Shown one piece after another: positions 2,351 to 16,769 of a stretch of 32,000 nt of DNA (positions are counted from its first letter, which is position 1; every line of letters starts with the position of its first letter). The DNA comes from Xanthomonas campestris pv. campestris str. ATCC 33913 (GTDB taxonomy: Bacteria; Pseudomonadota; Gammaproteobacteria; Xanthomonadales; Xanthomonadaceae), in NCBI RefSeq assembly GCF_000007145.1, contig NC_003902.1, positions 30,001 to 62,000 on the forward strand, in the 5' to 3' direction. The notes under the pieces are model-generated. The model searched no databases. It saw only the letters and a list, made by a program, of their open reading frames with translations, and had not been told where the DNA came from. A program made the translations under genes and the position numbers.

Positions 2351-3403
2351 TTATCGGGTGACGCGATGCGCGCGTGCGCTCAGGGTTTTCATCTGCGGCT
2401 TGTCGCGGCCTTGCGCATCGGGCTGCACGTTGAACGGATAGCTGGTTTTCCACCACGCGCCCGCGGCCCAGAACGTCCAACCGATCCACACATCGTGGTT
2501 GGTTTCGAGATAACCGAGCATGCCGTCGAGCGCCGCAGTGCAGGTTGCGTTATTGGCGGTGCCGAATTCGCCAAGAAAACCGCGCTTGCCTTGCGCGCGC
2601 AGCCAGCCGGTGAAACTGCGCAAGCGCTCCGCGCCGATCGTGCGGCTCACACAACCGGCACTGGTGCCGCTGGAGTCGGTATCCAGGTATTGATGGACTT
2701 CGATCGCATAGCGATTCAGTGGGTCGCGGATGTTCGCAAGCGCCACTGCATTGGACTGCCCGGCCACGGTGGAATACCAGCTGTGTGCGCCCGACCACAA
2801 TGCACCGGGCACCAGAATCAGGTTGGTGGCACCGGTGGCACGAATGCTGTCGATGGACGCCTGCGCGGCGGCGGCCCAACTCTCTGGCGAGATGTCGTAC
2901 GGCTCGTTCATCAGCCCGAAAATCACGGCGTTGTCGCTCTTGAACGCGATGGCCAGACGGCGCCAGAGATCGGTGAACGTGCGCACCGGCACCCGCTTAC
3001 TGCCAATCTTCTGGCCGTAGTACTTGGCGTAGTTGTGCACATCGATAATCAGGTATTGATTGGCGGCCTTGGCGTTGGCCACTGCCTGCTTCAGCAATGC
3101 CAGTTGTGCCTGATCCAGCGGACCTTGAGCTTTGGGCTGCATGCGCTCCCACAGGATCGGCAGGCGCACGATGTTCATTTGCTTGCCCGCGAAGTACCTG
3201 TACTCGGACGCGGTTGGATAGCGGTAGTCGATATTGAGCACGCCCGGTTTTTTGGACGACTGGATCTCCGCACCGGAGATGTTGACGCCTGCGTATTTCA
3301 GACGATTGGGGCTTTGCGCCTGTGCGATGGACATCGTGGCGATGCACAGCATGACCAACGCGCAGCGCAGCAGCTGGCGTGGCCAGGAGGGGGAGGCAGA
3401 CAT
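2351..3403 (-). CDS. GH5 family endoglucanase (cellulase), paralog 2, secreted
   Basis: The ORF 2351..3469 is trimmed to the ATG at 3403-3401, which follows AAGGAAC. The signal peptide is MSASPSWPRQLLRCALVMLCIATMSIAQA. It has the same GH5 motifs (VRLPILWERMQP, LMNEP, HQYLD, FLGEFG) and is collinear with paralog 1 along its whole length. Confidence 0.88.
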   Translation of the reverse strand: MSASPSWPRQLLRCALVMLCIATMSIAQAQSPNRLKYAGVNISGAEIQSSKKPGVLNIDYRYPTASEYRYFAGKQMNIVRLPILWERMQPKAQGPLDQAQLALLKQAVANAKAANQYLIIDVHNYAKYYGQKIGSKRVPVRTFTDLWRRLAIAFKSDNAVIFGLMNEPYDISPESWAAAAQASIDSIRATGATNLILVPGALWSGAHSWYSTVAGQSNAVALANIRDPLNRYAIEVHQYLDTDSSGTSAGCVSRTIGAERLRSFTGWLRAQGKRGFLGEFGTANNATCTAALDGMLGYLETNHDVWIGWTFWAAGAWWKTSYPFNVQPDAQGRDKPQMKTLSARAHRVTR

Positions 3404-4033
3404 GGGGTGTTCCTTGCAGTTGCGGGGGAGATACGCTGCCCGCAACGTCATGCCGCGCGACGCGGCCAACAGCGCATCTGTCTCTACCCTAGGCGCAACG
3501 GCACGCTGAAACTACAGATGCGAGGTATCACTCTTCCAAGCTGTGCGGTGTTTCGCAGTGGCGGCAGGATCTGGTCGACGCATCCGCGACAGAGGCACGT
3601 TTTCATGCCCATGTATGGAAGCGTGTGCGCAGCTTGAAACGGCGCGCGTGGCGCGTCGGCCAAGAGACCTGTGGCGAAAAAACTGCCTGGCTAAAAACAC
3701 GGCATGCGGTGATCACTGCATGCACGGGCAGCCACACCGCAACGACCGCGGTGCGCCCGCGTGATCACGGTTGCCTATGTGGCTGCGAGCCGATGCACGC
3801 GCACGTGGCAGTTCCACCTACACGCCGCACAAACGGCGTGCCAGGTGACAGACACCGCCAACGTCGCGCGTGCGGCGCTCGCATTCGGCTGCGCTAAAGC
3901 GGCCAGGAAGCAGAGACGCAGACGCCAGGCAGGCGCGAGCGTGGAGGTGCATCGGTATGGACTGAGTGTCCACGCCAACGGCTCCGCGCATGCGCCTGCC
4001 TGGCGTTTGCTCGCTACATGGTGCTTGGGGCGC

Positions 4034-5098
4034 TTACTTGCCGGCGCGACGCGCGTGCTCGCTCAGGATCGACATCTGCGGCTTCTCGCTGCCGTCCTTG
4101 CCCGGCTGCACATTGAACGGGTAGTCCGGCTTCCACCACGCGCCGGCCGCCCACCAGGTCCAGCCCAGCCACACGTCGCTGTTCTTTTCCATGTAGCTCA
4201 GCATGCCTTTCAGCGCGTCGTTGCAGACCGCATTGTTGGCCGTGCCGAACTCGCCCAGGAAGCCTTTCTGCTTGTTCTCGCGCAGCCAGTCGGTAAAGCC
4301 GCGCAACTTGTCTGCGCCCACCGTGGCACTGGTGCATTCGGGCTTGGTGCCGCTGTAGTCGCCGTCCAGGTATTGATGCGCTTCGAAGGCCAGATTGTTG
4401 CCGGGGTCCTTGAGAATCTGCAGGGCCTTGGCATTGGAGACGCCGTAGCTGGTGCTGCGCCAGCTGTGCGCGCCGGTGTAGGCCGTGCCAGGCACCAGAA
4501 TCAAATTGTTCGCGCCGGTCTTGCGGATGGTGTTGATCGCCGCTTGTGCGGCCGCGGCCCAGTCGGTGGAGGAGATGCCATTGGGCTCGTTCATCAGCCC
4601 GAAGATCACCTGCTTGTCGTCCTTGAACTCCAGCGCCAGGCGGCGCCACAGATCGGCCAGTGCTGCAGGCGGCACCTCGTCGGTGCCGATGCGCTTTCCG
4701 TTGTACTTGGCGTAGTTGTGCAGGTCCAGGATCAGGAACTGCTTGTTGGCCTTGGCGGCGGCCACGGATTTTTTGATCAACGCCAGTTGCGCCGCATCCA
4801 GCTCGCCATTGAGGGTTGGCTGCAGGCGCTCCCACAGAAACGGCAAGCGAATGGTGTTCATGCCCTTGCTGGCGAAATAGCTGAAATCCGCCGCCGCCGG
4901 GTAGGTGTAGTCCTTGTAGAGCGTGCCGGGCTTCTTGCGCGAGTTGAACTCGGCGCCGGAGATGTTGACGCCCACGTACTTCAATCCGCCGCGGGCGTTG
5001 TCTGCCTCCTTGGCATGCGCCAACGGCAACGTGGCGAGCAGGGCCAGCGCCAGTGCGGCAGCGTGGGTGCGGGTGGAGCGGGGGAGAGATGGGAACAT
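4034..5098 (-). CDS. GH5 family endoglucanase (cellulase), paralog 3, secreted
   Basis: The ORF 4034..5179 is trimmed to the ATG at 5098-5096, which follows GAAGGAGG. The signal peptide is MFPSLPRSTRTHAAALALALLATLPLAHA. GH5 motifs are IRLPFLWERLQP, LMNEP, HQYLD, and FLGEFG. It is the most divergent of the three paralogs. Confidence 0.88.
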   Translation of the reverse strand: MFPSLPRSTRTHAAALALALLATLPLAHAKEADNARGGLKYVGVNISGAEFNSRKKPGTLYKDYTYPAAADFSYFASKGMNTIRLPFLWERLQPTLNGELDAAQLALIKKSVAAAKANKQFLILDLHNYAKYNGKRIGTDEVPPAALADLWRRLALEFKDDKQVIFGLMNEPNGISSTDWAAAAQAAINTIRKTGANNLILVPGTAYTGAHSWRSTSYGVSNAKALQILKDPGNNLAFEAHQYLDGDYSGTKPECTSATVGADKLRGFTDWLRENKQKGFLGEFGTANNAVCNDALKGMLSYMEKNSDVWLGWTWWAAGAWWKPDYPFNVQPGKDGSEKPQMSILSEHARRAGK

Positions 5099-5411
5099 GG
5101 GGGAGCCTCCTTCGGCAGTCGACGTAGGCGGCCGCAGGGGGAGGGCACGGCCAGCGAGGATGGTGCAGCGCCACACCATCGATGGTCAGCCTAGGGGCCT
5201 CGGCGTTAGCGCGCCATTCACGCGGGCAACGCTGATTTGATGATGCGCGAACGTCCAAAGCGCCATGCTGGCGCCACGGTCGAGTTCGCAAGCCGACTGG
5301 CAAGACGCACTGTCGCAGGAGTGCGACGGAGCGGTGTCCTAAGCTAACGCACCTACTTTTTTGCTGTCTGCGCCCTGCGCGGGCGGCGTTTCCGTCCCCT
5401 GGAGTATTCCC

Positions 5412-6470
5412 ATGAGCAAAGCCCACGCCTACGCCGCCCAAACCGCCGACCAGCCGCTGGCGCCGTTCGTCTTCGAACGTCGCGCGCCCGGTCCCGACGA
5501 TGTGCAGATCGACATCGCCTACTGCGGTGTGTGCCACTCGGACCTGCACACCGCACGCAACGAATGGCACAACACGGTGTATCCCTCGGTGCCGGGCCAC
5601 GAGATCGTGGGCCGCGTCACTGCCGTCGGCAGCGCCGTGACCAACTTCAAGGTCGGTGACCTGGCCGGTGTGGGTTGCATGGTCGACAGCTGCCGCAGCT
5701 GCGCCTCCTGCCAGGAAGGCGAGGAGCAATATTGCGAACAGGGCTTCACCGGCACCTACAACGGCCCGATGTTTGGCGGCGGCGAGAACACCTATGGCGG
5801 GTACTCCGACCATATCGTGGTGGACCAGAAGTACGTGCTGCACATTTCCCACAGCGACAACCTGGCCGCCGTGGCCCCGTTGTTGTGCGCGGGCATCACC
5901 ACCTATTCGCCACTGGCGCATTGGAAGGTTGGCCCCGGGCAGAAGGTGGGCGTGGTCGGCCTGGGTGGCCTGGGCCACATGGCGGTGAAGATCGCCAAGG
6001 CCATGGGCGCCACCGTGGTGCTGTTCACCACCTCCGAAAGCAAGCGCGCCGATGCGCTGCGCCTGGGCGCCAGTGAAGTGGTCATTTCCAAGGACGAGGC
6101 GCAGATGGCCGCGCAGTACAACACCCTGGATTTCATCCTCAACACCGTGGCCGCGCCGCACAACCTGGACCCGTTCCTCAATGCGCTCAAGCGCGACGGC
6201 GCGATGGTGCTGGTGGGCGTGCCCGAACATTCGCATCCGTCACCGGCGGTGTTCAACCTGGTAATGAAGCGCCGCACGCTGGCCGGTTCGTTGATCGGCG
6301 GCATCCGCCAGACCCAGGAAATGCTCGATTTCTGCGCCAAGCACAACATCGTCTCCGACATCGAAACCATCCGCGCCGACCAGATCAACGAGGCCTACGA
6401 GCGCATGCTCAAGGGCGACGTGAAGTACCGCTTCGTAATTGATATGGACACGCTGGCCAAGGCGGCCTGA
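5412..6470 (+). CDS. Zn-dependent NAD(P)-alcohol dehydrogenase (YahK / cinnamyl-alcohol-dehydrogenase-like MDR family)
   Basis: The ATG at 5412 follows GGAG (5401-5404). It carries the catalytic-zinc motif GVCHSDLH, a structural-zinc Cys cluster (CRSCASCQEGEEQYC), and a Rossmann motif (GVVGLGGLGH). Confidence 0.9.
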   Translation: MSKAHAYAAQTADQPLAPFVFERRAPGPDDVQIDIAYCGVCHSDLHTARNEWHNTVYPSVPGHEIVGRVTAVGSAVTNFKVGDLAGVGCMVDSCRSCASCQEGEEQYCEQGFTGTYNGPMFGGGENTYGGYSDHIVVDQKYVLHISHSDNLAAVAPLLCAGITTYSPLAHWKVGPGQKVGVVGLGGLGHMAVKIAKAMGATVVLFTTSESKRADALRLGASEVVISKDEAQMAAQYNTLDFILNTVAAPHNLDPFLNALKRDGAMVLVGVPEHSHPSPAVFNLVMKRRTLAGSLIGGIRQTQEMLDFCAKHNIVSDIETIRADQINEAYERMLKGDVKYRFVIDMDTLAKAA

Positions 6471-6493
6471 TCGCTGTTGTAGCAGGTGTAATG

Positions 6494-6537
6494 CCACCGC
6501 TTGCGTCGCTTATGACGCAGGCGTTGGTCAACGGTGG
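6494..6537. terminator. Imperfect long hairpin just downstream of the adh stop (possible terminator or islet boundary structure)
   Basis: CCACCG (6494-6499) pairs with CGGTGG (6532-6537). An inner stem, CTTGCGTC (6500-6507) with GACGCAGG (6514-6521), matches 7 of 8 around the loop GCTTAT. There is no downstream T-run, so it is not a canonical intrinsic terminator. Confidence 0.3.
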
Positions 6538-6713
6538 TCAGTTGACCTAGGGCTGAAGGAATATCTATCTACGCCGCAGTTTACTTGCAGTTTGGCACAA
6601 TCTCGCGATTAGGCAATTAATGCTTGAATAGCTAGCTACTAGATCGTTCTTAAGTCGCTCATAGTTTAAGGCGACGAAAAATACTTGCAGCTCTGCGAAG
6701 GAACTCACCGAAA

Positions 6714-7447
6714 TCAATTAGCCGGCAAGTTTGTCTTGAATGAGCTTCTAGATTTCCTATAAGTCGCAATGATACTTAAGATGTACTTAGATCCATACGC
6801 AATTAAGAATCCAGTGTTGTAAGGCACTGTCATTCCTGTAGGTTCACCGTTCTCATCAATAACATTCTCATATTCAACGCGAAACTTGGAGACGACACCC
6901 GCGACGCGAACTTCTTCGGGCTTGCCAGCAGGGTAAAAGAATAGTGGGCCTCCAGAAAATCCTTCGTTGTTAATGGCATCTATGTGGAGAATTTGCGGGT
7001 CATCGAGCTGGTATGAAGAAACGGTACCTTTCTTCGCATACGGACATGGCATGCCACCCATTAAATTCCCAACGTTTCCCCACATCTTGTATGGAAATCC
7101 AAGGAAGTATATATCTTGCCCCCAAGCAAGGCCCGCAATGGTTGGCGTTACAGGATAGCCAGCCGGACTGAGGCGTTGCGGTAACCTAAGGACTGAAATG
7201 TCTATTTCGCCCCTGCCATGTCCAACGACCTGAGCATTTAAGCTCTGCCACTTCTCGTCATGGAAGACCAGAATTTGAAATTCTTGATGCTCCTGACTAA
7301 GGAGGTGGCGCGCAGTACCAGAAATTCTTCTCCATCAATTTCTAAAGTAAAAGCAGTGCCATATGCCTCCGCTTTGATGAAAAATGTACGTAGTAGGATG
7401 TTAGAGACAACCATATAGCCGAGAGCCTCAAGTAAGTCATCGAGCAA
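6714..7447 (-). pseudogene. Trypsin-like (S1 / Trypsin_2-type) serine protease, interrupted by one frameshift
   Basis: Two minus-strand frames join to give ...AYGTAFTLEIDGEEFLV|TARHLLSQEH...GRGEIDISVLRLPQ...GFPYKMWGN...INNEGFSGGPLFFY... The His (TARH), Asp (DISVLRL) and Ser (GFSGGP) triad contexts are in canonical order. The frame changes at about 7314-7318, where one extra base would restore FLV-TARHLL. My own translation shows the downstream frame is open from 7334 down to 6714. The start is TTG at 7447 or ATG at 7414. Confidence 0.7.
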
Positions 7448-7450
7448 AGA

Positions 7451-7957
7451 TTAGTAATTAAATGGACTGTTCGGCAGCGACAGTAGCCATACCAGATGAG
7501 ACTGCCTTAGAGAGGTATGGTTTTGGCGAATCATGCCCCTTAGATATGCGAGACGCATATGGCCCTCTATCAGTTGATTTGAACGCATCGTTGCGCCTTT
7601 TGGATGCATCAAGCCTGATGAGTTTGCAGCAACTATAATTGGGACGGGCGACGTGCCGTTGGTCAGCATATATGTCGCCAGCCAAGTACTTCTGCGAATC
7701 TGGTCCCGGAAGAGTTCGTCTCCCCAGTAATCGAGGGTTTCTAGCCACTCGTCGAAGTGGCCAATGTGCATGATTTCTGCATTGGTTAGGTTAGCTTGCG
7801 CAAAGACGAGCTGATCGATTGACCTATTCAGCCAATCGCGCTCGAACTCCTGCCAATGCCGGTGGACCCAGCTTTCGACGACATTGTGGAAAATTACTGA
7901 GCTGTTTCGGCCATCGAGCGTAGTAATCGTCGAACGACTCAGCGCCAGAGTCACCAT
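7451..7957 (-). CDS. Hypothetical 168-aa protein, first gene of the AT-rich islet cassette
   Basis: The ORF starts at the ATG at 7957-7955 and is uninterrupted in AT-rich DNA, where random ORFs tend to be short. Its stop (7453-7451) lies 3 nt before the protease start, which suggests an operon. I recognise no family. There is no signal peptide or transmembrane segment. Confidence 0.55.
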   Translation of the reverse strand: MVTLALSRSTITTLDGRNSSVIFHNVVESWVHRHWQEFERDWLNRSIDQLVFAQANLTNAEIMHIGHFDEWLETLDYWGDELFRDQIRRSTWLATYMLTNGTSPVPIIVAANSSGLMHPKGATMRSNQLIEGHMRLAYLRGMIRQNHTSLRQSHLVWLLSLPNSPFNY

Positions 7958-8001
7958 ACCCTTTGACGGTAGGGGCGATCATATCTTTGGTTAGCGAACG
8001 C

Positions 8002-9596
<1,595 letters not shown>

Positions 9597-16187: not shown

Positions 16188-16769
16188 TCAGCAGGCGTAC
16201 GAACGGCGCTGCAGGCGGTAGGTAGTCGCCGGCGGCAGGTTGCGATACGTGCGCCCGATTTTGACGGCCTCCAGATCGAGCTGGTCGAGAATGCAGTCGG
16301 GCACCGAGCACTTCAATCCGTAGGTAAACAGATACATGCGGCCATCATCCTTGAGATGCAGGAAGGCACCGCGCACGATCGCCGCCACCTGGTGCATGGG
16401 CATGGTCAGCAAGCCCAGGCCGCAGATCACCGCATCCACGCGCCCGCCGTCGATGCGCGGCAGTGCTTCCAGGCCGGTCACATCCATCTGCAGCAGGTTG
16501 GCACGGGGAAACCGCTGTTTGAGCAATGCGGAAAACGCCGCGTTGTACTCCAGCAGCACCAGATTGTTTTCCTGCACACCCCTGTCGAGCATCGCTTCGG
16601 TGAACACACCGGTGCCGGGGCCGAGTTCGAGCACCCGCTCGGTGGTATGCGAGAGCTCGGAGGTGATCACCGCGGCCAGCGCGCGCCCGGATGGAAGGAT
16701 CGCCGCAACCGATGCGGGCGCAGTGATCCATTCGCGAAAAAATGAAGTCCTGTACGAACGCGCCATCAA
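16188..16769 (-). CDS. Class I SAM-dependent methyltransferase (phospholipid N-methyltransferase-like, COG3963-type)
   Basis: The 193-aa ORF carries SAM motif I (VLELGPGTGVFT). The N-terminus FFREWITAPASVAAILPSGRALA is typical of the small phospholipid / rRNA-adenine methyltransferase-like group. Confidence 0.75.
   Translation of the reverse strand: MMARSYRTSFFREWITAPASVAAILPSGRALAAVITSELSHTTERVLELGPGTGVFTEAMLDRGVQENNLVLLEYNAAFSALLKQRFPRANLLQMDVTGLEALPRIDGGRVDAVICGLGLLTMPMHQVAAIVRGAFLHLKDDGRMYLFTYGLKCSVPDCILDQLDLEAVKIGRTYRNLPPATTYRLQRRSYAC

What the first reader, a model, noticed from the sequence alone, without database searches (positions are those of the whole stretch)
6540..8001. AT-rich islet behind gltD with a two-gene cassette (168-aa unknown protein + S1 protease): best candidate for an undescribed accessory system
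**Composition.** Base composition collapses between the adh stop (6470) and the gltD stop (8002). My hand count of 6601-6660 gives 25/60 G+C, while the flanking genes are visibly well above 60%.

**Gene layout.** The islet holds exactly two same-strand ORFs that are almost abutting: stop at 7451-7453, next start at 7447 or 7414. This reads as an operon of an unrecognisable 168-aa cytoplasmic protein followed by a trypsin-like serine protease of about 240 aa with no signal peptide.

**Transcription context.** The first ATG (7957) is only 44 nt after the gltD stop, with no hairpin in between. The cassette could therefore be transcribed by read-through from gltBD.

**Interpretation.** No integrase, transposase or tRNA is present. 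Compact foreign-composition cassettes that pair a small unknown protein with a cytoplasmic protease are a recurring layout of anti-phage, abortive-infection and toxin-antitoxin-like modules. I cannot assign this pair to any named system.
Basis: partly seen in the sequence, partly recalled or inferred. Interest (0 to 1): 0.75.

Follow-up and report, generated by a model that had tools for sequence, protein, structure and literature searches.

The report
Decayed foreign two-gene islet behind gltD
A 1.5-kb AT-rich insert between two core genes of Xanthomonas campestris carries a small ParB-like protein gene of an unnamed family and a cytoplasmic serine-protease gene; both families belong to the phage-defence-island gene pool, but both copies here are broken by frameshifts, so this copy is a relic.

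Summary
Window 6528-8001 has 48% G+C against a window median of 66%. It is the only such trough in 32 kb, and it holds two same-strand genes.

- **Both genes are pseudogenes here.** The "168-aa protein" is itself a frameshift product. The true gene starts at ATG 7982 and encodes about 181 aa; a 2-bp deletion near 7881 breaks it. The protease has a 1-bp deletion at 7315/7316. Intact copies exist in X. bromi-type genomes.
- **The site is a cargo-replacement hot spot.** Other X. campestris strains carry different genes at exactly this position.
- **Gene A** belongs to an unnamed family with 553 representative clusters and no Pfam, NCBIfam or PADLOC model. A confident model gives weak but consistent ParB/sulfiredoxin-like fold matches. 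Members lie directly next to Avs2, PD-T7-4, CBASS and MADS genes, in a prophage moron slot, or in tight operons with HEPN-like or nuclease-like genes.
- **The protease** has an HtrA-like catalytic domain with no PDZ domain and no signal peptide.
- **The pairing is local.** A next to this protease family was seen only in this Xanthomonas islet, so a dedicated two-gene system is unproven.

Verdict: ordinary decayed defence-island-type cargo that points to an uncharacterised gene family.

The parts
6528..8001 (.). Variable AT-rich islet: the cargo segment of a replacement hot spot between the gltD stop codon and the adh 3' flank.
   Evidence: G+C is 0.48 against 0.64-0.69 in the flanks. BLASTN of the alternative X. 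campestris alleles L072 and L073 against the window loses homology at 8001 and regains it at 6527. No repeats, tRNA or integrase are present.
7451..7982 (-). Gene A pseudogene. The ancestral protein is about 181 aa, from an unnamed family with a ParB/Srx-like core and an EGHMR motif. The true start is ATG 7982-7980 and the stop is 7453-7451.
   Evidence: The family alignment shows the conserved N-terminus MIAPTVKGYGDSGAESFDDYYARWPKQLSNFPQC in a different frame from the rest of the gene. The in-frame allele is P0002/L022, and intact orthologues are in L001 and L079-82. The AF2 model has pLDDT 96.3. Fold hits are ParB-N, ParB/Srx, GmrSD-N and DndB, at E 0.006-0.05.
7880..7884 (-). Site of the 2-bp (GT/TG) deletion that frameshifts gene A. 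The exact position is ambiguous within the TGTG run.
   Evidence: DNA alignment with L022 and X. bromi gives CCACAA--TGTCGTC. The deletion is present in the window and in all 8 X. campestris loci with identical GltD that carry the cassette.
7451..7957 (-). The 168-aa ORF as read by the first-stage reader. Residues 1-25 are out-of-frame; residues 26-168 correspond to residues 35-181 of the real protein.
   Evidence: The same ORF is annotated as a 168-aa hypothetical protein in Xcc genomes.
6714..7414 (-). Protease pseudogene. The ancestral protein is a 233-aa cytoplasmic S1/Trypsin_2 serine protease. Catalytic codons are H37 at 7307-7305, D72 at 7202-7200 and S154 at 6956-6954.
   Evidence: Pfam PF13365, E 4e-11. 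H37, D72 and S154 are invariant in 46 homologues. The AF2 model has pLDDT 92.9, and its best PDB fold matches are the HtrA/DegQ/DegS protease domains (E 5e-9, TM about 0.6). Intact 233-aa copies are in L022 and L069, with a 233-235-aa orthologue in L001 and L079-82.
7315..7316 (-). Site of the 1-bp (A) deletion that frameshifts the protease (GTAACT becomes GTACT, between V33 and T34).
   Evidence: The deletion is present in the window and in 7 of the 8 related loci; it is absent from L069 and L022.
8002..9483 (-). gltD (glutamate synthase small subunit), the core gene upstream. Its stop codon (8004-8002) is the left boundary of the hot spot.
   Evidence: Pfam Fer4_20 and Pyr_redox_2 on the identical protein. 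Between X. bromi and X. campestris, dS is only 0.26.
5412..6470 (+). Zinc-type alcohol dehydrogenase, the convergent core gene on the other side. Its 57-nt 3' flank (6471-6527) is conserved between alleles.
   Evidence: (ADH_N and ADH_zinc_N on the 352-aa product).

Best explanation
Window 6528-8001 is the cargo of a small replacement hot spot between the core genes gltD and adh of Xanthomonas campestris pv. campestris. It is identical here to strain 8004.

The cargo is a horizontally acquired pair of conflict-type genes, probably transcribed by read-through from gltBD.
- **Gene A** encodes a protein of about 181 aa from an unnamed family. Its core resembles the ParB/sulfiredoxin fold and carries an invariant E-G-H-x-R motif.
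- **Gene B** encodes a 233-aa cytoplasmic serine protease with an HtrA-like catalytic domain and no PDZ domain.

Both families are patchily distributed. Gene A is part of the defence-island and prophage-moron gene pool.

The most likely ancestral role (inferred, not shown) is phage or mobile-element defence. I infer that A acts as an NTP- or nucleic-acid-binding ParB/Srx-type enzyme or switch. I infer that the protease is a self-contained or A-assisted effector, in the way trypsin-like domains serve Lamassu, Avs and RT-protease systems.

In this window nothing works as designed. A was inactivated first by a 2-bp deletion and the protease later by a 1-bp deletion. The islet is therefore a decaying relic.
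For: **Shown**
- The composition trough is real and unique within the window.
- Both frameshifts are defined against intact alleles and are shared by 8-9 independent complete genomes. They are nested: every locus with the protease deletion also has the A deletion, while L069 has only the A deletion.
- An independent nonsense mutation hits A in L022, and IS elements have inserted in L068, L071 and L074-76.
- Intact copies in X. bromi-type genomes have evolved under purifying selection: dN/dS is 0.14 for A and 0.04 for the protease.
- The hot spot holds three alternative cargoes with identical break points.
- The A family has 553 clusters at 50% identity and no Pfam, NCBIfam, PADLOC or PHROGs hit.
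- The A model is confident (pLDDT 96). All of its best fold matches are ParB, ParB/Srx, GmrSD-N or DndB. The residues E and R of the EGHxR motif are invariant in 95 diverse members.
- A-family genes lie directly beside Avs2, PD-T7-4, PDC-S15, mad3, a CBASS-type E1-E2/JAB-patatin gene, a GajB-like helicase and CBASS. One lies between the Q antiterminator and the endolysin of a prophage.
- A-family genes overlap (ATGA) or abut HEPN-like and nuclease-like genes, and once an unrelated Trypsin_2 gene.
- The protease has an invariant catalytic triad and a chymotrypsin/HtrA-like fold. It gives weak PADLOC hits to the LmuA and RT-Protease_XI effector domains.

**From the literature**
- ParB/Srx domains act as NTP-regulated DNases in conflict systems and occur as solo genes in prophages (PMC5512222).
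- Trypsin-like proteases serve as exchangeable defence effector modules (PMC9226505).
Against: - No experiment and no formal enrichment statistic supports a defence role. The neighbourhood evidence comes from about 48 distinct loci, with ORFs called by hand.
- The ParB/Srx assignment is weak. Foldseek E-values are 0.006-0.05 and TM-scores 0.25-0.36. No Pfam ParBc hit was found, and profile searches of PDB sequences found nothing.
- The A-protease pairing is confined to one locus in one genus. A functional link between the two genes is therefore not shown.
- About a third of A genes have no tight neighbour at all.
- The truncated 168-aa ORF might retain some activity, because the ParB-like core is still in frame.
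Confidence: 0.6

Rival explanations
1. A and the protease form a dedicated two-gene defence or abortive-infection system. A senses infection, through its ParB/Srx-like NTP- or DNA-binding site, and activates the protease, which then cleaves host or phage proteins. The window holds a dead copy of that system.
For: - The genes are on the same strand, 29-36 nt apart, with similar low G+C.
- They are retained together, both under purifying selection, across alleles that have diverged to dS above 1.
- The decay order fits loss of a sensor followed by neutral loss of the effector: A broke first, the protease later.
- Elsewhere A sits in overlapping operons with other effector-type genes, HEPN-like and PD-(D/E)xK-looking, and once upstream of an unrelated Trypsin_2 gene. 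This resembles a conserved module with swappable effectors.
Against: - None of the six non-Xanthomonas protease-family contexts contains an A gene (Lysobacter x2, Pseudomonas, Desulfobacula, Comamonas and a Logan contig). None of the roughly 46 other A contexts contains this protease family.
- A is often solitary or sits beside complete single-gene systems such as Avs2 and PD-T7-4.
- A occurs alone in a prophage moron slot.
Confidence: 0.3
2. The pair is a toxin-antitoxin or addiction module, with the protease as toxin and gene A as its antitoxin or immunity protein.
For: - The layout is compact and two-gene, with foreign composition.
- Elsewhere A pairs on either side with HEPN and nuclease-like genes, which are typical toxin domains. 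This recalls promiscuous antitoxin domains.
- In Lysobacter antibioticus, A lies in a co-oriented run of small genes that includes DUF4259.
Against: - A is frameshifted while the protease is intact in L069, and an intact protease cluster (P0206, 41 member sequences) is on record. Losing an antitoxin while keeping an active toxin should be lethal.
- A has invariant catalytic-type residues (E, H, R) and an enzyme-like fold.
- A is frequently solitary.
Confidence: 0.07
3. The two ORFs are ordinary housekeeping or virulence genes of Xanthomonas, for example a secreted protease, and the low G+C is incidental.
For: The islet lies in a core metabolic neighbourhood (gltBD, adh, cellulases), and the protease fold is HtrA-like.
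Against: - The locus is polymorphic between strains that share an identical GltD.
- Both genes are pseudogenes in most X. campestris pv. campestris genomes.
- The protease has no signal peptide and no PDZ domain.
- No PIP-box lies near the islet.
- The families are scattered across unrelated phyla.
Confidence: 0.03

Closest known systems
Solo ParB/Srx-superfamily DNase/NTPases of mobile elements (Osa of plasmid pSa; DdrB-like ParB domains of prophages), as reviewed in PMC5512222
   Same: Gene A is a small protein of about 20 kDa with no ParA partner and no HTH domain. Its strand-strand-helix core carries a [D/E]-G-x-x-R motif with an invariant arginine. It is found as a solo gene in prophages and in conflict loci.
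   Different: No sequence-level relationship to any ParB, Srx or DUF262 model could be detected. Gene A has a family-specific N-terminal helical part with a W-x-x-R-H-W motif. Its activity is untested.
Trypsin-like protease effector modules of defence systems (protease-type LmuA of Lamassu, RT-Protease class XI, Avs1/UG9 protease domains)
   Same: The protease is a cytoplasmic Trypsin_2 domain with an intact H/D/S triad, occurring in accessory and defence contexts. It gives weak PADLOC hits to LmuA (E 1e-7) and RT-Protease_XI (E 3e-7).
   Different: Here the protease is a free-standing 233-aa protein. It is not fused to, or adjacent to, an SMC-like LmuB, a reverse transcriptase or a STAND ATPase. 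The hits cover only the generic protease domain.
HtrA/DegP/DegS (S1C) protease domain
   Same: These are the best structural matches to the predicted fold (E 5e-9 to 1e-7, TM about 0.55-0.61).
   Different: The window protease has no signal peptide and no PDZ domain, is only 14-19% identical, carries a C-terminal amphipathic helix instead, and is not a core gene.
Defence islands and variable-cargo hot spots between conserved core genes
   Same: The flanks are fixed (gltD and adh), the break points are precise, the cargo genes alternate between strains, no integrase is present, IS elements accumulate nearby, and the cargo genes decay.
   Different: The islet is very small, with one or two genes and 0.6-1.5 kb of cargo. 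The cargo is placed to be co-transcribed with a housekeeping operon, gltBD.

Membership tests
S1 / Trypsin_2 serine peptidase (PF13365) | Profile match above the curated threshold | tested here: met
   44.2 bits against a cut-off of 27.6, E 4e-11, for the frame-repaired protein. The intact alleles are annotated PF13365.
S1 / Trypsin_2 serine peptidase (PF13365) | Catalytic His-Asp-Ser triad and chymotrypsin fold | tested here: met
   H37, D72 and S154 are invariant in 46 homologues. The AF2 model has pLDDT 92.9, with 385 PDB matches at E <= 0.001; the top-listed ones are serine-protease domains, chiefly HtrA/Deg.
S1 / Trypsin_2 serine peptidase (PF13365) | Intact reading frame in this window (a functional member) | tested here: not met
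   A 1-bp deletion at 7315/7316 separates the N-terminal 33 codons from the rest, which includes the catalytic His.
HtrA/DegP family (S1C) | Periplasmic targeting signal and one or two C-terminal PDZ domains | tested here: not met
   Only the protease domain is present. No PDZ hit was found in Pfam, and the N-terminus MVVSNILLRTFFIKAEAYG has no signal-peptide character.
ParB/sulfiredoxin superfamily (for gene A) | Alpha+beta core with strand-loop-strand followed by a helix that starts with the [D/E/G]-G-x-x-R motif and has a conserved active-site Arg | tested here: inconclusive
   The predicted elements are strand 116-120 (PIIVA), strand 136-140 and helix 142-153, with EGHMR at 140-144; E and R are invariant. 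The Foldseek best hits are all ParB, Srx, GmrSD-N or DndB but weak (E 0.006-0.08, TM 0.25-0.36).
ParB/sulfiredoxin superfamily (for gene A) | Sequence-profile match to ParBc, DUF262, Srx or solved ParB structures | tested here: not met
   No Pfam hit for any of 51 members, even at E <= 5. Profile searches of PDB sequences returned only chance hits.
Known anti-phage systems in PADLOC-DB v2 | Gene A or the pair matches a system model | tested here: not met
   Gene A gave only a chance-level Cas10d hit (E 0.08). The protease gave domain-level hits only, and the obligatory partners (LmuB, RT) are absent from the islet.
Lamassu (LmuA protease type + LmuB) | An adjacent SMC-like ATPase LmuB | tested here: not met
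   The islet holds only two genes, flanked by gltD and adh.
Type II toxin-antitoxin module | The antitoxin is indispensable while the toxin is intact | tested here: not met
   L069 carries the A frameshift with an intact 233-aa protease. L022 has a truncated A with an intact protease. Caveat: the truncated A may retain some function.
Conserved two-gene system (A + this protease family) | The two families co-occur as neighbours in unrelated genomes | tested here: not met
   Co-occurrence was seen only at the Xanthomonas gltD-adh site (L001, L022, L067-76, L079-82). It was absent from 6 other protease contexts and about 46 other A contexts. One A gene sits next to an unrelated Trypsin_2 gene (L011).
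Classical genomic island | Integrase, tRNA target, flanking direct repeats | tested here: not met
   No tRNA in the window, no flanking repeats, and no integrase or transposase ORF in the islet.
Defence-island resident gene family (for gene A) | Members recurrently adjacent to known defence genes in unrelated genomes | tested here: met
   Neighbours include Avs2 (E 8e-157), PD-T7-4 (1e-79), PDC-S15 (2e-57), E1-E2/JAB-patatin (1e-78), mad3 (1e-32), a GajB-like helicase (7e-33) and CBASS Cap15 + CD-NTase. No formal enrichment test against a background was possible.

The most novel reading that the evidence does not exclude
Gene A represents an unrecognised, widespread family (at least 553 clusters at 50% identity, across many phyla) of ParB/Srx-like anti-phage genes. 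The family would work either alone, as in the prophage moron slot, or as a conserved NTP- or DNA-sensing module that teams up with interchangeable effectors: HEPN RNases, PD-(D/E)xK-like nucleases and Trypsin_2 proteases. The Xanthomonas A + protease cassette would be one such combination.
Probability: 0.3. Interest if true: 0.6.

Novelty: new member of a known kind. Interest (0 to 1): 0.38.

Why it matters
For this genome the finding matters little. The islet is a decayed pair of pseudogenes at a strain-variable site, and current annotations (a 168-aa hypothetical protein plus a truncated peptidase) should be read as pseudogene fragments.

The wider value has two parts.
- The gltD-adh junction of X. 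campestris is a clean small hot spot, with at least three alternative cargoes inserted exactly behind a stop codon. It could serve as a strain marker and as a natural expression slot.
- Gene A points to an unnamed family with a confidently modelled structure. The family keeps company with Avs2, PD-T7-4, CBASS, MADS and prophage lysis-region morons, and it is absent from Pfam, NCBIfam, PHROGs and PADLOC.

If the family proves to be a defence gene or a modular sensor, it would add a ParB/Srx-type component to the defence repertoire. Intact alleles to test are available in X. bromi LMG947 (L001); the other intact X. bromi-type loci (L079-L082) come from assemblies and sequencing-run contigs whose species was not identified here.

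Tried and rejected
**Family and structure searches for gene A**
- Pfam, NCBIfam, PADLOC and PHROGs scans found nothing.
- Profile searches of PDB sequences with 51- and 95-member alignments gave only chance hits: thioredoxin, eL39 and TRAIL.
- Pfam on ten longer, fusion-like family members gave one weak CTP-dependent riboflavin kinase hit and nothing else. The extra domains remain unidentified.

**Tests of the A-protease link**
- phmmer and an HMM of the protease family against all ORFs of 61 A-family loci hit only the Xanthomonas islet.
- All-against-all BLAST of the neighbours of A found no conserved partner.
- The A-family HMM against protease-family loci from other genera found nothing.

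**Sequence features of the islet**
- Scans for promoters, terminators, repeats, Rfam families and tRNAs found nothing meaningful in the islet.
- A PIP-box search, testing the idea of a type III effector, found no site near the islet.

**Wider collections**
- tblastn of A against GenBank phages gave no match. Against plasmids it gave only distant Hymenobacter and Aeromonas matches.
- Literature searches for a ParB + trypsin-like defence pair, or for this X. campestris locus, found nothing specific.

**Ideas rejected**
- Sequencing error as the cause of the frameshifts: the lesions are identical in 8-9 independent complete genomes.
- Core or housekeeping status for the genes: the locus is polymorphic between strains.
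- A classical toxin-antitoxin module: A is broken while the protease is intact.
Full report
**1. The observation**

The composition trough is real and stands out. G+C of 6471-8001 is 0.478, against 0.642 for adh, 0.685 for gltD and 0.650 for the whole window. In 1500-bp windows the minimum (0.476) lies here, and no other part of the 32 kb falls below 0.58.

The islet holds two minus-strand genes. No tRNA, integrase, flanking repeat, consensus promoter, Rfam match or convincing terminator was found.

**2. Organism and the state of the two genes**

The nearest protein hits place the window in Xanthomonas campestris. Over the islet it is base-for-base identical to X. campestris pv. campestris 8004 (CP000050.1, locus L067).

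*Gene A.* Alignment of the 168-aa ORF with its homologues showed that its first 25 residues match nothing. The conserved family N-terminus (MIAPTVKGYGDSGAESFDDYYARWPKQLSNFPQC) is encoded in another frame, starting at ATG 7982, which is 19 nt after the gltD stop. DNA alignment with an in-frame X. campestris allele (L022) and with X. bromi (L001) pins the cause: a 2-bp deletion in a TGTG run at about 7880-7884.

*The protease.* It carries a 1-bp deletion at 7315/7316 (GTAACT becomes GTACT) just before the catalytic His.

*Distribution of the lesions.*
- The window and all eight cassette-bearing X. campestris loci that share its exact GltD carry the A deletion.
- The window and seven of the eight loci also carry the protease deletion. 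L069 has an intact protease.
- L022 has an independent TCG>TAG nonsense codon at codon 169 of A, with the protease intact.
- L076 has an IS element inserted between the two genes; IS-type transposase genes lie just beyond the cassette in L068, L071 and L074.

The lesions are therefore real mutations, not sequencing errors. They are nested, with A broken first and the protease later.

*Intact copies.* Intact copies of both genes exist at the same gltD-adh junction in X. bromi and in other genomes with the X. bromi-type allele (L001, L079-82). Between the two allele types both genes show purifying selection: dN/dS is 0.14 for A and 0.04 for the protease. Their synonymous divergence (about 1.0 and 2.3) is four to nine times that of the flanking gltD (0.26) and adh (0.48). 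I could not tell whether this reflects allelic replacement at the site or weaker codon constraint in AT-rich genes.

**3. The site is a replacement hot spot**

Among X. campestris genomes with the identical GltD protein, the junction carries one of three cargoes:
- the A + protease cassette;
- a 117-aa signal-peptide protein plus a 142-aa NttA-like protein (L072);
- a single 186-aa low-G+C protein with an RNKVGH, HEPN-type motif (L073).

Homology between these alleles and the window stops exactly at 8001, the base after the gltD stop codon, and resumes at 6527, which is 57 nt past the adh stop. All three cargoes begin 13-19 nt after the gltD stop on the gltD strand. This part is inference; no expression data were available.

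**4. What gene A is**

*Family.* The family has no Pfam, NCBIfam, PADLOC or PHROGs model. It is not small: a profile search found 553 representative clusters at 50% identity, mostly proteins of 170-190 aa. Members are scattered over Xanthomonadales, Burkholderiales, Kangiella, Acidobacteriota, Chloroflexota, Chlorobiota and Hymenobacter plasmids.

*Structure.* An AlphaFold2 model built from 51 sequences is very confident (pLDDT 96.3, pTM 0.89). Its fold matches are weak, with E-values of 0.006-0.08 and TM-scores of 0.25-0.36. They are, however, consistently members of the ParB/sulfiredoxin superfamily: the pNOB8 ParB N-domain in the PDB, and ParB, ParB/Srx, GmrSD N-domain and DndB-like proteins in BFVD.

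*Motif.* The sequence fits the same picture. A strand (PIIVA), a loop and a second strand run into a helix that begins E-G-H-M-R. The E and R are invariant, and the G and H nearly so, across 95 diverse members. This corresponds to the DGHHR, DGQQR and DGQHR motifs of ParB-like nucleases, DUF262 and DndB; that comparison rests on my own knowledge and on PMC5512222.

*Limit of the evidence.* Sequence profiles do not connect the family to any solved ParB structure. I therefore call gene A ParB/Srx-like, not a proven member.

**5. Where gene A lives**

I examined about 48 distinct loci.

*No conserved partner.* No gene is a conserved neighbour of A across these loci.

*Known defence genes as direct neighbours*:
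- Avs2 (E 8e-157, 30-nt gap)
- PD-T7-4 (E 1e-79, 12-nt gap)
- PDC-S15/FRG (E 2e-57)
- mad3 (E 1e-32)
- a CBASS-type E1-E2/JAB-patatin fusion (E 1e-78)
- a GajB-like helicase (E 7e-33)
- CBASS Cap15 + CD-NTase, within about 1.3 kb

A SymE toxin gene and a Fic/VbhA pair also lie nearby in two loci.

*Prophage slot.* In Stenotrophomonas terrae the gene sits alone between the Q-like antiterminator and the endolysin of a lambdoid prophage, the classical moron slot.

*Tight operons.* In several loci A overlaps or abuts a second gene of similar composition:
- a 190-aa protein with an RNAFAH motif and weak HEPN/Cas13b-HEPN hits (ATGA overlap; L003, L026, L030);
- a 210-aa HEPN-like protein (L017);
- a 236-aa protein with a PD...EVR motif (L004; assigned by motif only);
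- an unrelated Trypsin_2 protease (L011).

*Tally.* A tight co-oriented downstream ORF was present in 16 of 40 loci and a tight upstream ORF in 21 of 39. Some of these are plainly host genes (argininosuccinate lyase, gltD). About a third of the loci have no tight neighbour.

**6. What the protease is**

- It matches Trypsin_2 above threshold.
- Its H37/D72/S154 triad is invariant in 46 homologues.
- It models confidently (pLDDT 92.9). Its best structural matches are the protease domains of DegQ, DegP, DegS and HtrA1 (E about 5e-9, TM about 0.6). It has no PDZ domain and no signal peptide, and it ends in a long helix.
- PADLOC gives only domain-level hits to protease-type LmuA and RT-Protease_XI.

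The family, of about 222 aa, is common in Lysobacter, Pseudomonas, Comamonas, Desulfobacula and many metagenomes. In six contexts outside Xanthomonas it has no A-family neighbour. Instead it sits next to a HEPN-motif protein near an Rhs gene, next to a DUF2971 protein, next to an integrase, or with no notable adjacent gene.

**7. Mechanism, with shown and inferred steps marked**

*Shown.* The islet is strain-variable foreign cargo. Both genes are inactivated here. Their intact forms were maintained by selection. Gene A belongs to a defence-island and prophage-moron family. The protease is an active-type cytoplasmic serine protease.

*Inferred.* The ancestral cassette served in conflict with phages or other mobile elements. 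A would act through an NTP- or DNA-binding ParB/Srx-type site, and the protease as an effector.

Whether the two proteins cooperate is open. The pairing is unique to this islet, which speaks for two independent neighbours. A's habit of forming operons with effector-type genes, and the A-first order of decay, speak for cooperation. I give the dedicated two-gene system 0.3, and the toxin-antitoxin reading 0.07 because the protease stays intact after A is broken.

**8. Comparison with known systems, and novelty**

The closest known things are:
- solo ParB/Srx DNase/NTPases of mobile elements, such as Osa and DdrB-like domains (PMC5512222);
- trypsin-like effector modules of Lamassu, Avs and RT systems (PMC9226505);
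- the HtrA protease domain, as a structural match;
- variable-cargo hot spots between core genes.

None of the defining partner genes of those systems is present, so the cassette is not a member of any named system.

As a feature of this window it is a new, and dead, member of a known kind: defence-island-type cargo. The A family itself is undescribed and is the only part that deserves follow-up.

**9. Verdict**

- Observation: partly confirmed. It is real, but the 168-aa ORF is a frameshift artefact of a pseudogene.
- Interpretation: partly supported. The region is accessory, foreign and defence-flavoured. It is not functional here, and it is not a recurrent pair.
- Interest: 0.38.

Noticed in passing
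window 6527/6528 and 8001/8002; loci L072 5484-6996 and L073 5484-6107: The gltD-adh junction of X. campestris is a cargo-replacement hot spot with base-precise break points. Alternative cargoes are a 117-aa signal-peptide protein plus a 142-aa NttA-like protein, or a single 186-aa low-G+C protein with an RNKVGH (HEPN-type) motif. All cargoes start 13-19 nt after the gltD stop, on the same strand.
   Followed up: partly
L068, L071, L074, L075, L076 (X. campestris genomes, islet region): IS-type transposase genes (DDE_Tnp_1, rve, HTH_Tnp_1 families) lie inside or beside the islet in several strains. In L076 one sits between gene A and the protease; in L074 no adh gene is called within the locus.
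   Followed up: no
L002 / L061 (Stenotrophomonas terrae; IMG/VR UViG 2675903279_000002), 4272-6336: An A-family gene sits alone between a Q-like antiterminator and the endolysin of a lambdoid prophage, which also carries CI-like repressor, O/P-like replication and large-terminase genes. This is the classical moron position.
   Followed up: partly
L012, L019, L011, L015, L014, L036, L026: A-family genes lie directly beside known or candidate defence genes: Avs2, PD-T7-4, PDC-S15 (FRG), mad3, an E2-E1-JAB-patatin fusion, a GajB-like UvrD helicase and CBASS (Cap15 + CD-NTase).
   Followed up: partly
L001 compared with L022 (islet genes and flanks): Synonymous divergence of the islet genes (about 1.0 and 2.3) is 4-9 times that of the flanking gltD (0.26) and adh (0.48). 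This could mean independent acquisition or replacement of the same cassette, or relaxed codon constraint.
   Followed up: partly
L062 (Lysobacter terrae) 3470-5214: The closest non-Xanthomonas protease homologue is flanked by a 157-aa protein with a C-terminal hydrophobic segment and a 164-aa protein with an IRNSFGH (HEPN-type) motif, a few kb from an Rhs-repeat gene.
   Followed up: no
L085 (Lysobacter antibioticus) 2921-5213: An A-family gene lies in a co-oriented run of small genes (180 aa, 138 aa, A, then a DUF4259 protein). The layout resembles arrays of immunity or accessory genes.
   Followed up: no
proteins P0093, P0122, P0148, P0151 (C-terminal) and P0111, P0136, P0183 (N-terminal): Some A-family members carry an extra helical extension of about 120 aa with no Pfam match. 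These are possible fused partner domains.
   Followed up: partly
window 16734-16758 (-): A single PIP-box-like match (TTCGT-N15-TTCGC). This is at chance level: 34 of 100 shuffles give at least one match.
   Followed up: no
window 4034-5179 (-); L022 10686-12507: A family-5 cellulase gene lies next to adh, and other X. campestris strains have two or three cellulase genes in tandem. This is ordinary core context and unrelated to the islet.
   Followed up: no
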